Shown: one piece after another, positions 39,401 through 42,400 of the stretch
Layout of the letters: each line of letters starts with the position of its first letter
Position numbering within the stretch: position 1 is the first letter of the stretch
Source of the DNA: Stylophora pistillata
Taxonomy: Eukaryota
Reading direction: 5' to 3'
NCBI RefSeq assembly: GCF_002571385.2
Contig: NW_019218344.1
Location: 111,471 to 175,470, forward strand
DNA length: 64,000 bases
Made by a program: the position numbers and the translations under genes
The notes under the pieces: generated by a model
Databases searched by the model: none
The model's input: only the letters and a program-made list of their open reading frames with translations
Told to the model about the DNA's origin: nothing

Positions 39401-42400
39401 CTTGTAGCATTGAAGGGGTTAACCTTTATTTATTTTTGTATGGGATCCTCCTGTAGTCTTGCAGCCTGCAATTTGCTTTAAATCCAAAATTGACATGATT
39501 GATATTGGTTCGCCATGTATACATCAAAATTGATTGTGCTGATGCCCTGATAAACTTACTAAACTAATCAAAAATCATGAGGTGCAACATAGTGATTTTA
39601 CAGCAAAGCTTTGATCATTTTTGACATTATCTCTCTAAAATAATAATTTAGAGAATGGGAATTAGGTCGATTCTTTTCCACTTAAAATTTGGGAACCTGC
39701 CTAATGCAAGAATTTGCACTGCTTTTTCTCCCAACTAGCTGCCAATATTTACATCTGAAAATTGCAAGTAGCTCTTAATACTTATAGTTCTAGTCTTTTT
39801 GACAACATGCAGCACATTAAGCTTCTAATTTTAACAGCACTAACCCCACCTGTATGAAGGTTTTGAAGAAATATGTAGGTATTTGCTCATTCAACTTTCT
39901 GTCAATAGCTATTTTTTGCACACTTCTCAGAATTCCCAGATTTGTTAGATTACAAGTTTTTAGGTACCCTGCAACCCTTCTCAGTTAACCCTATCTGACT
40001 GTTAATTCTCCCTTCTAGCTGTTACACATTTCCTTGTAAATTTGTTATGAGAATTTAGTGTTAGATCAAGAGAACAACTTCTGCCTGATGAGTTAGAGTA
40101 TACTCATTACCTGTTTGCTAGATAATGTACAGGTATAGACCACTTTCATAAATGGCTGCCAGATTAATATTCTTTTGTTTAAATTTAAATTAGCCCTTCT
40201 GGCCTCGCTTGAGATAATGTATTCTTTTGAATTTTGTACTGGAGAACTAGGCCAGAAGGGCTAATTTAAATTTAAACAAAAGAATATTAATCTGGCAGCC
40301 ATTTATGAAAGTGGTCTATACCTGTACATTATCTAGCAAACAGGTAATGAGTATACTCTAACTCATCAGGCAGAAGTTGTTCTCTTGATCTAACACCAAA
40401 TTCTCATAACAAATTTACAAGGAAATGTGTAACAGCTAGAAGGGAGAATTAACAGTCAGATAGGGTTAACTGAGAAAGGTTGCAGGGTACCTAAAAACTT
40501 GTAATCTAACAAATCTGGGAATTCTGAGAAGTGTGCAAAAAATAGCTATTGACAGAAAGTTGAATGAGCAAATACCTACATATTTCTTCAAAACCTTCAT
40601 ACAGGTGGGGTTAGTGCTGTTAAAATTAGAAGCTTAATGTGCTGCATGTTGTCAAAAAGACTAGAACTATAAGTATTAAGAGCTACTTGCAATTTTCAGA
40701 TGTAAATATTGGCAGCTAGTTGGGAGAAAAAGCAGTGCAAATTCTTGCATTAGGCAGGTTCCCAAATTTTAAGTGGAAAAGAATCGACCTAATTCCCATT
40801 CTCTAAATTATTATTTTAGAGAGATAATGTCAAAAATGATCAAAGCTCTGCTGTAAAATCACTATGTCTATGGATATCATTGGGAGAAGTTTCATGTTAA
40901 TCACCTCTGGGAGTTTAAGGGTAAATTCTCTTTCCTCTTGTTAAGACCTTGCTCTTATGTTTAGGTATTTTCTTGGAATTATATGGTGTATTTTGCAATT
41001 TTATTTGTGCAGCTGTGTAAAAAAAAAAATCCTTGCTCTGATTTGTTTACCATTAGATGAAAGCTGGGACATTTGAAGAATTTTATATTGCAACTATCAT
41101 TCGTGAGGTTCTCAAAGGCCTTGATTATCTCCATTGTGAAAAGAAGTTACATAGAGATATAAAAGGTATGTCAGGATTATCCAGTTTCATGTACAGTACT
41201 TGTTTTCAGAGTGGATCTTTTCTCTTCCACTCAATGCATTGCTAGGTTTTATGCAGCTGTCATCATTCATTCTTTGATATTTGTCTGAAAGGTTGTTCAT
41301 TTCTTGTTTACTCAGCGGCTAATGTGTTGATGTCAGATACTGGTGATGTTAAGCTAGCAGACTTTGGTGTAGCTGGACAGCTCACAGACACATTAAACAA
41401 AAGAAATACATTTGTTGGAACACCATTCTGGATGGCTCCAGAAGTGATCAAACAATCTGCTTATGACTCAAAGGTATATGATTGCTTTCTTTTGTGTTTA
41501 TCACGACTTCAGTACTTAGGAGCCACTAATCTTAGAAAGAGAGTTGGCCAACATTTGCAAAATTTCATGATTCATTTTATTTTCCTAAAGGACTCTTTGG
41601 TTGATATTCAGAGAAAGCAAAGTGCAATAGAACTTTTGATATAATTTTTGTAAAAGGTTCATCAAAGGTGTCCTTTAGGAAACATAAAAGGAATTATGAA
41701 ATTTTTCAAATGTTGGTGGATTCTCAATATATATGGTCAGTGGCTCTTAAACTTTATTTACTCAGTTGTTCCATGCTTAAGATGTGTCTTAAGTTGGACA
41801 GTTGTACCCACATGTCAACTCCATAGTTTTATGCACATCTAAAATAGACCTGGTTTTTTTCACAATTTGTTACTAGTCAACTCATGAATTTGCTAGCACA
41901 TTTTAAACAATTACACTTCCAGTGAATCAACTGTTTTACTCCCAGATCTGATTGTTGATTCCTCCCTCTAGCTGCTACACATTTCCATATAAATTAGTTA
42001 CAAGAATTTGGTGTAAGATCAATTTTGAGTATTTGCCAGATGTATGAATATGTTTGGAGAAGTTACATGTACACGTTAGTCACTTAATGTACAAAGATGA
42101 TCTTTGATGAGCTGGTCTGATTTGTAGGCACGCGATCTACATGGAAAGATCTCAATAAAGGATTTCTGGTAGTTATTTTCTTCATTGTCTTTTCACAGGC
42201 TGATATCTGGTCTTTGGGAATTACTGCAATTGAACTTGCCAAAGGGGAACCTCCCAATTCAGATCTTCATCCCATGAGAGTTTTATTTTTAATACCAAAG
42301 AACAATCCTCCAGAACTGACTGGAAATTTCAGCAAAGCATTTAAGGAGTTTGTGGCCATGTGTCTAAATAAAGATCCCAGCGATGTGAGTTCATGAGGAT

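What the first reader, a model, noticed from the sequence alone, without database searches (positions are those of the whole stretch)
39587..40867. 1.28-kb palindrome: ~550 bp of host intron inverted-duplicated around a palindromic MITE
Seen: unique intron sequence 39587-40135 is repeated in reverse at 40319-40867 around MITE copy 2. The older TTAA-CCC repeat interrupted at ~40129 (…GATAATGTA) resumes at ~40869 (TATGGATATC…), so the MITE plus inverted flank is the inserted material. The arms differ at about 3 positions. Inference: this is fold-back or template-switch repair primed by the MITE hairpin, or aberrant transposition. The kinase pre-mRNA would form ~620 bp of dsRNA, a potential ADAR or Dicer substrate. 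Misassembly at a hairpin is the main alternative.
Basis: partly seen in the sequence, partly recalled or inferred. Interest (0 to 1): 0.7.

Follow-up and report, generated by a model that had tools for sequence, protein, structure and literature searches.

The report
MITE fold-back palindrome in coral intron
A coral kinase intron really does carry a 1.28-kb DNA palindrome in some individuals, likely made once when DNA copying folded back on a small hairpin-shaped transposon and duplicated 550 neighbouring bases; this is a clean example of a known kind of mutation, and any effect on the gene's RNA is untested.

Summary
The palindrome is real. Its 619-nt arms differ at 3 sites. In three DNA-type runs from two studies the arm has 1.6-1.9 times the flank depth, and a contig crosses the novel right junction, which refutes half-depth misassembly. 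RNA-type contigs from three other samples show one arm only, so the duplication is probably polymorphic.

Its last five bases (GTCTA) survive at the right junction, and removing 552 nt (40316-40867) restores a complete MITE inside the older repeat. This fits a four-point '3-2-1-4' template switch or fold-back, started in the MITE's terminal inverted repeats and ended at a 2-nt microhomology.

It is not a habit of this MITE family. Only 2 of 97 copies have inverted flanks. All 7 similar palindromes found elsewhere in the assembly end at an N gap and may be artefacts.

A-to-I editing and small RNAs could not be tested, because raw RNA reads did not cover the arm. The reconstructed ancestral junction was not seen directly. 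The scan noted similar events in other genomes before (e1-9841431, e1-9965645, e1-9831711). Verdict: new member of a known kind, modest interest.

The parts
39587..40135 (+). Original copy of the duplicated intron segment (left arm outside the MITE, 549 nt); carries one derived change (40057 G>A)
   Evidence: 17 of 18 other copies of the older repeat have G at the 40057-equivalent site
39993..40129 (+). 5' part of an older ~220-bp high-copy interspersed repeat (TTAACCC...GGGTTAA ends in intact copies), interrupted at GATAATGTA
40136..40318 (.). 183-bp palindromic MITE (TAGACC...GGTCTA) with 70-bp terminal inverted repeats; inserts between A and T (87 of 97 copies); 671 exact 25-nt end matches in the genome; superfamily not assigned
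40206..40248 (.). 43-nt non-palindromic spacer (MITE loop) at the centre of the palindrome
40316..40867 (-). Inferred 552-nt insert, the reverse complement of 39587-40138 with 3 differences; its placement can slide from 40314 to 40320; likely carries two derived changes (40477, 40848)
   Evidence: left-arm-type base at 40477 in X5, X8, X9 and X11
40866..40871 (+). Return junction GT|CTAT: 2-nt microhomology plus the MITE's original last bases (GTCTA) and the flanking T
   Evidence: junction crossed by contig 40818-40902 with 0 other letters in X2, X3 and X5
40869..40925 (+). 3' remainder of the older repeat
39080..41056 (+). Host intron (GT...AG, 1977 nt) of an STE20 GCK-III kinase gene (MST3/MST4/STK25-like); no exon lies between the arms
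   Evidence: splice sites read from the sequence; exon 41318-41473 best matches MST4/STK24/STK25, E 3e-25; + strand expression and the next splice 41163>41314 seen in raw RNA

Best explanation
The palindrome is a real 552-nt inverted insertion, probably polymorphic, that likely arose once when a DNA end inside a pre-existing MITE folded back on the MITE's other terminal repeat and copied outward. Inferred order of events: (1) an older repeat sat in the kinase intron; (2) the 183-bp MITE inserted into it at an A|T step; (3) a nascent or broken strand ending in the 3' terminal repeat paired with the 5' terminal repeat (70-bp stem) and was extended in reverse through that repeat and 549 nt of upstream intron; (4) it rejoined at a 2-nt GT microhomology 3-5 nt inside the MITE's 3' end, with no net loss of sequence. 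In four-point terms this is order 3-2-1-4. Both arms then likely picked up point mutations (1 left, 2 right). Shown: the structure, double arm depth, the novel junction, and single-arm contigs in other samples. Inferred: the order of events and the mechanism. The trigger (fork stall, cruciform cut or other break) cannot be told from the product. The pre-mRNA is predicted to form a ~620-bp hairpin that would be spliced out; no function is shown, and it is most likely a neutral scar.
For: Depth of arm versus flank: 43.9/27.5 (X2), 243.7/128.2 (X3), 228.1/135.5 (X5), ratios 1.60, 1.90 and 1.68. No paralog of the outer arm exists elsewhere in the assembly. A contig at 40818-40902 crosses the right junction (50 and 35 nt on the two sides, 0 other letters) at 1.06, 0.96 and 0.53 of flank depth. 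Excess depth in the same bin implies a second, left-arm record at 0.77, 0.87 and 1.00 of flank (computed; not displayed by the tool). Removing 552 nt restores a canonical MITE end followed by the older repeat, with no untemplated base. Another copy of this MITE in the same site of the older repeat has the same kind of end junction (L004). X8 (sample S4), X9 (S5) and X11 (S7), from three further studies, have an arm contig running unbroken past 40866-40867 into other sequence, and no listed record crosses the right junction. X8 also has the arm-MITE join (40295-40401, 0 other letters). Derived changes fall on both arms, which a library or assembly fold-back would not give. The window's MITE is the only one of 97 with 0 mismatches over the 70-bp repeats, and it has the non-consensus pair A:T at 40161/40293 (5 of 96 others have it), as expected if the 3' repeat was recopied from the 5' one.
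Against: The reconstructed ancestral joint (40315>40868) was listed in none of the 8 runs laid (six joints were not shown). X8's arm-MITE record has only 25 nt on the MITE side, below the tool's 31-nt bar for a bridge. X8, X9 and X11 are RNA or unknown-type contigs at depth 6-17, and contigs show presence, not absence; X11 does not cover the right flank. X2 may be the source of the assembly. X2, X3 and X5 share an identical 782-nt flank contig, so they may be one genotype: independent libraries but not independent lineages. X5's half-depth junction suggests heterozygosity, yet its contig is not broken at 40866, where a MITE-ending allele should merge. Of the 5 remnant bases GTCTA, GT also belongs to the arm and TA could belong to the older repeat, so only one base is fully diagnostic. 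The microhomology is only 2 nt. T at 40293 occurs in 22 of 96 other copies, so the A:T pair could be inherited plus one mutation. No laid record spans the centre, so the spacer length rests on the assembly alone. PMC5453318 (passages) argues that short human-chimp events are inter-strand rather than intra-strand fold-backs.
Confidence: 0.72

Rival explanations
1. Transposase-triggered event: a one-ended cut at the MITE's 3' end, or alternative transposition between sister chromatids, made the break, and repair or insertion of the end 549 nt upstream produced the inverted copy.
For: The return point lies 3-5 nt inside the MITE end, where staggered transposase cuts fall in Tc1/mariner elements (recalled). 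The family is young and abundant (671 exact end matches; median 6 differences from consensus). Alternative transposition makes inverted duplications in maize (10.1101/2020.01.07.897926, search listing and abstract start only).
Against: A transposase-joined end at 39587 should show an intact MITE terminus and the family's A|T target. The junction has a truncated end with microhomology instead. A hairpin base is also where polymerases stall and cruciforms are cut (recalled). Only 2 of 97 copies have inverted flanks. No autonomous partner was identified.
Confidence: 0.13
2. The inverted duplication is real, but the centre is collapsed in the assembly: two MITE copies or a longer spacer lie between the arms.
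For: No listed contig spans the centre. The two arm-MITE joins are identical and collapse into one record at 1.67-2.03 times flank depth.
Against: The scaffold is gap-free here. The one-step 552-nt insertion explains every junction base without a second MITE.
Confidence: 0.07
3. The MITE and the inverted flank arrived together as one composite insertion into the older repeat.
For: The older repeat's TA occurs on both sides (GATAATGTA ... TATGGATATC), as a TA duplication would leave it.
Against: It needs an untemplated C and a chance GTC match to the MITE end. X8 shows an arm-MITE join without the right junction. This MITE's insertions show A|T flanks rather than a TA duplication.
Confidence: 0.05
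4. Assembly artefact: a contig ran round the MITE hairpin, or two haplotypes of an inversion were merged.
For: This assembly does seem prone to such errors: 7 of 7 similar palindromes elsewhere end at an N.
Against: The arm has 1.6-1.9 times flank depth, not 1.0 or 0.5. The right junction is at full flank depth in X2 and X3, where a heterozygous inversion predicts 0.5. It recurs in a second study. There is no N at this locus, and derived changes fall on both arms.
Confidence: 0.03

Closest known systems
Four-point local template switch, type 3-2-1-4 / 1-4-3-2 (PMC5453318; passages read)
   Same: [quoted passage not shown] The switch order 3-2-1-4 fits. The paper notes 2-3 nt identity at switch points in larger rearrangements.
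   Different: The copied fragment here is 552 nt or more (up to ~620 nt if the 3' repeat was recopied), while that paper treats short events. The first switch here is seeded by a 70-bp transposon stem.
Foldback inversions via ssDNA hairpins in yeast (PMC7467729; abstract and outline read)
   Same: A long-stem hairpin-forming sequence primes an inverted duplication, and a second junction stabilises it.
   Different: Those are gross chromosomal rearrangements resolved mostly by homologous recombination. This is a local 0.55-kb insertion resolved at a 2-nt microhomology with no net deletion.
[quoted passage not shown]
   Same: Template switching at inverted repeats gives palindromic junctions.
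   Different: As recalled, ODIRA gives an inverted triplication with two palindromic junctions around an origin. Here there is one palindromic junction and one microhomology junction, with two copies.
Inverted-duplication origin of endo-siRNA and miRNA hairpins in Hexacorallia (PMC7713132; passages read)
   Same: A transcribed inverted duplication predicted to form a long near-perfect hairpin, in a hexacorallian.
   Different: That model concerns duplicated coding genes that target their source. Here the stem is intron and repeat sequence, and no small RNA data were examined.

Membership tests
Four-point template switch (3-2-1-4) | The inserted fragment is the reverse complement of nearby sequence | tested here: met
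   40316-40867 equals the reverse complement of 39587-40138 with 3 differences in 552 nt
Four-point template switch (3-2-1-4) | The product is fully explained by three fragments, with no untemplated bases | tested here: met
   Removing the insert restores a canonical MITE end plus the older repeat
Four-point template switch (3-2-1-4) | The ancestral allele is observed for comparison | tested here: inconclusive
   Single-arm contigs in X8, X9 and X11, but the MITE-to-right-flank joint is not listed in any of 8 runs; a metagenome scan with the right flank found 0 matches
Four-point template switch (3-2-1-4) | Arises during replication rather than during break repair | not testable with these tools
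   Both routes give the same product
Foldback inversion | A pre-existing inverted repeat lies at the centre of the palindrome | tested here: met
   The MITE family's 70-bp terminal repeats form the centre
Foldback inversion | A second, resolving junction | tested here: met
   GT microhomology junction at 40866-40868, crossed by a contig in 3 of 3 DNA-type runs laid
ODIRA | Inverted triplication with two palindromic junctions (feature recalled) | tested here: not met
   Two copies and one palindromic centre; depth 1.6-1.9 times flank
Alternative transposition product | An intact transposon end joined to a new target with the family's target signature | tested here: not met
   The new junction has a truncated end with microhomology, not an A|T insertion of a whole end
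Crypton non-autonomous element (for the MITE) | No terminal inverted repeats (PMC3212892, passages) | tested here: not met
   The MITE has 70-bp terminal inverted repeats
Tc1/mariner-type MITE (for the MITE) | TA target-site duplication (recalled) | tested here: not met
   Flanks are A|T in 87 of 97 copies. Filled versus empty site in the older repeat fits no duplication, or an AT duplication, but not TA
ADAR / Dicer substrate | A-to-G clusters or small RNAs over the arms in a carrier | tested here: inconclusive
   Zero raw-read depth on 40485-40853 in X21 and X24 (2 and 6 in 100 of each run read); no small-RNA data laid
STE20 GCK-III kinase (host gene) | Kinase domain closest to MST3/MST4/STK25 | tested here: met
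   A 52-aa exon scores E 3e-25 to 8e-24 against MST4/STK24/STK25 and about 1e-18 against STK3/STK4; Pfam Pkinase. One exon only

The most novel reading that the evidence does not exclude
Palindromic MITEs in corals repeatedly seed fold-back duplications of their own flanks. Many of the gap-adjacent palindromes in the assembly (3 in 800 kb of unselected sequence, which would scale to about 1,500 genome-wide) would then be real, segregating, kilobase hairpins that short-read assemblers break at. Those inside introns would be an ongoing, colony-variable source of ADAR substrates and endo-siRNA or proto-miRNA precursors.
Probability: 0.1. Interest if true: 0.62.

Novelty: new member of a known kind. 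Interest (0 to 1): 0.3.

Why it matters
As it stands, this is a well-resolved natural example of a transposon hairpin seeding a heritable inverted duplication, with depth support, a readable order of events and probable carriers and non-carriers. That makes it a small natural experiment: the same kinase intron with and without a ~620-bp predicted hairpin, in a lineage where intronic A-to-I editing is common (PMC5850803, passages) and inverted duplications are proposed to seed small RNAs (PMC7713132). It also carries a practical warning: similar palindromes in this assembly mostly abut gaps and should not be trusted without reads. It opens no new mechanism.

Tried and rejected
1. Habitual behaviour of the MITE family: rejected. 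Of 97 distinct full-length copies (98 rows, one duplicate; chosen from best-scoring and first-listed hits, not at random), only the window copy (549 nt) and L128 (86 nt, ending at an N gap) have inverted flanks of 50 nt or more. Eleven locus records that repeated other loci, and L005 (held again as L136), were dropped before the count.
2. Generality from the assembly alone: inconclusive. Searches (1,021,289 nt, partly overlapping, MITE-centred; 800,000 nt, 31,453 N; 790 kb in four contiguous blocks scanned as 10-kb pieces) gave 7 further palindromes with near-identical flank arms (L136, L137, L097/L221, L128, L166, L173, L151). All 7 end at an N. They could not be tested with reads.
3. Editing: raw RNA runs X21 and X24 had no depth on the unique arm. 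Single changes in contigs (40475 A>G in X9, 40790 T>C in X8, 40463 G>A in X11, 40836 A>C in X9) come from samples without the right junction and are best read as alleles.
4. The 'opposite strand' joints near 40324-40337 > 40869-40883 are most likely other copies of the older repeat, so they were not used.
5. An orthologous allele from metagenome contigs: 0 matches. No related genomes are held.
6. Crypton and Tc1/mariner assignments for the MITE failed their defining features. I looked at 12 partial copies for a longer coding partner and found none; this was not a full search.
7. Literature: (template switch + inverted duplication + hairpin + MITE) gave 5 papers and one search listed 20 of 25. 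None of the titles or abstract starts describes MITE-centred flank duplication in corals. This was a narrow search of an open-access library, and supplements were not examined.

Full report
Observation. The sequence holds a 1281-nt palindrome at 39587-40867. Its arms are 619 nt each (39587-40205 and 40249-40867) with a 43-nt spacer, and they differ at 3 sites: 39606/40848, 39977/40477 and 40057/40397. No N lies nearby. The window is G000:C559:111471-175470 of a 398-Mb, 5513-contig animal assembly. Several runs holding the stretch are labelled coral metagenome, so the host is taken to be a coral. The palindrome lies inside one intron (39080-41056, GT-AG) of an MST3/MST4/STK25-like kinase, expressed from the + strand. 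No exon lies between the arms.

Anatomy. The centre is a 183-bp MITE (40136-40318) with 70-bp terminal inverted repeats. A 25-nt end motif has 671 exact matches in the genome against 0 for the reversed control. Copies sit between A and T in 87 of 97 cases. The arm's outer 384 nt occur only at these two places. Its inner ~140 nt are the 5' part of an older high-copy repeat, which resumes just after the right arm.

The junction. The right junction reads ...CACTAT-GT|CTA-TGGATATC. The five bases GTCTA equal the MITE's last five bases. Removing 552 nt (40316-40867, placement ambiguous from 40314 to 40320) yields ...GAAAGTGGTCTA|TGGATATC, a complete MITE end followed by the older repeat. The removed piece is the reverse complement of 39587-40138 with the same 3 differences. 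An independent insertion of this MITE at the same site of the older repeat has the same type of junction (L004). So the MITE likely came first, and the duplication was placed 3-5 nt inside its 3' end. The caveat is that GT is shared with the arm and TA could come from the older repeat, so only the C is fully diagnostic.

Is it real? Only the right half of the palindrome was laid. In X2 (sample S1, study P1), X3 (S2, P2) and X5 (S3, P2) the collapsed arm contig 40425-40847 has 1.60, 1.90 and 1.68 times the depth of the flank contig 40882-41663. A contig at 40818-40902 crosses the novel junction with no other letters, at 1.06, 0.96 and 0.53 of flank depth. Residual depth in that bin implies a second record, the left arm's outer end, at 0.77, 0.87 and 1.00 of flank (computed; not displayed by the tool). 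A merged heterozygous inversion predicts arm 1.0 and junction 0.5, and a hairpin run-around predicts no such junction. Both are excluded for X2 and X3. Limits: X2 may be the assembly's own source, the three samples may be one genotype, and no record spans the centre.

Polymorphism. In X8 (S4, P3), X9 (S5, P4) and X11 (S7, P5) the arm contig runs past 40866-40867 into 494-537 other letters without branching, and no listed record crosses the right junction. X8 and X9 also cover the right flank separately; X11 does not. These are low-depth (6-17) RNA or unknown-type contigs, so absence is probable, not proven. All three carry the left-arm base at 40477, and their counts of other letters fit the left-arm base at 40848. 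X8 has the right-arm base at 40397, which is also the older repeat's consensus (17 of 18 copies). This places one derived change on the left arm and likely two on the right (3 in 1098 nt, 0.27%). That is of the same order as the 1-2 private differences per ~440 nt seen in the single-arm contigs, so the event is about as old as ordinary alleles. The predicted ancestral joint 40315>40868 was not listed in any of the 8 runs, and X5's half-depth junction is not fully explained.

Mechanism. The product fits the four-point order 3-2-1-4, which PMC5453318 (passages) describes as creating an inverted repeat; with its mirror case it makes up 31% of high-confidence human-chimp events. It also fits hairpin-primed foldback as in yeast (PMC7467729, abstract). 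The window's MITE is the only one of 97 with perfectly matched 70-bp repeats, and it carries a non-consensus A:T pair at 40161/40293. This suggests, but does not prove, that the first switch lay between 40249 and 40292. I commit to fold-back priming in the MITE stem with rejoining at a 2-nt microhomology (0.72). Whether a fork stall, a cruciform cut or a transposase nick started it cannot be read from the product.

Generality. Only 2 of 97 MITE copies have inverted flanks of 50 nt or more. Seven other palindromes with near-identical flank arms turned up in about 1.8 Mb, most centred on other palindromic repeats, and all seven end at an N. In two (L136, L166) the flank arms, 585 and over 1000 nt, have no mismatch. 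These look like gap-extension errors, though unresolved real palindromes are not excluded. The window's case differs in having no gap, diverged arms and read support.

RNA. The sense transcript is predicted to fold into one long stem (-1116.7 kcal/mol for 1341 nt, no shuffle control at this length). Raw RNA runs X21 and X24 covered the exons (about 35-68 deep) but not the unique arm (0), so editing was not testable. Their genotype at this locus is unknown. Coral intronic editing is documented (PMC5850803, passages), and an inverted-duplication route to small RNAs is proposed for Hexacorallia (PMC7713132, passages). Neither is shown for this locus.

Comparison and verdict. It works like, and meets the testable features of, a local template-switch or foldback inverted duplication. 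It fails ODIRA (recalled feature) and the alternative-transposition junction test. The MITE fails the Crypton and TA-duplication tests and stays unassigned. Earlier notes of this scan report similar events in other genomes (unchecked). New member of a known kind; interest 0.3.

Noticed in passing
L136:4563-5808 (= L005:16-1261), L137:4206-4897, L221:3689-4527, L166:2047-4516, L173:6010-6698, L151:3983-5046, L128:4839-5199: Seven palindromes of 0.36-2.5 kb with near-identical flank arms, mostly around a central palindromic repeat; each ends at an N or N run. Likely gap-extension artefacts of this assembly, not tested with reads.
   Followed up: partly
L003:1501-1830 and L004:1501-1860: The same MITE has inserted at or near the same ...GATAATGTA|TGGA site of the older repeat at two other loci, which suggests a preferred target within that repeat.
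   Followed up: partly
window 40129-40135: Six extra bases (CAGGTA) lie between the older repeat's GATAATGTA and the MITE; they resemble a TA-flanked excision footprint (motif recalled).
   Followed up: no
L128:1845-3843: A complex 99% identical inverted array with a ~247-nt period, about 1 kb from a MITE copy that itself has an 86-nt inverted flank with 4 mismatches ending at a gap.
   Followed up: no
L093:4487-4825: A 339-nt palindromic element flanked by a 9-nt direct repeat (CCTACTCCC), like a target-site duplication; not seen in other fetched loci.
   Followed up: no
L116:4671-5267: Two MITE copies with the same upstream flank in tandem, the first followed by a single N: a tandem duplication or an assembly overlap.
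   Followed up: no
window 22228-22783, 29687-29769, 55202-55366, 56914-57158: A second palindromic repeat family with several copies and fragments; the 22.2-22.8 kb copy is split by an 18-N gap (22548-22565).
   Followed up: no
window 33871-34002, 60825-60958, 54545-54717: Short tandem duplications (66 nt identical; ~64 nt at 97%; ~85 nt at 89%).
   Followed up: no
window 41516-41750 and 41946-42022: The next kinase intron holds an older 235-nt palindromic element (71% self-match) and another fragment of the older repeat.
   Followed up: no
window 7167-7407 and 8366-8602: A 240-nt direct repeat at 93% identity, 1.2 kb apart.
   Followed up: no
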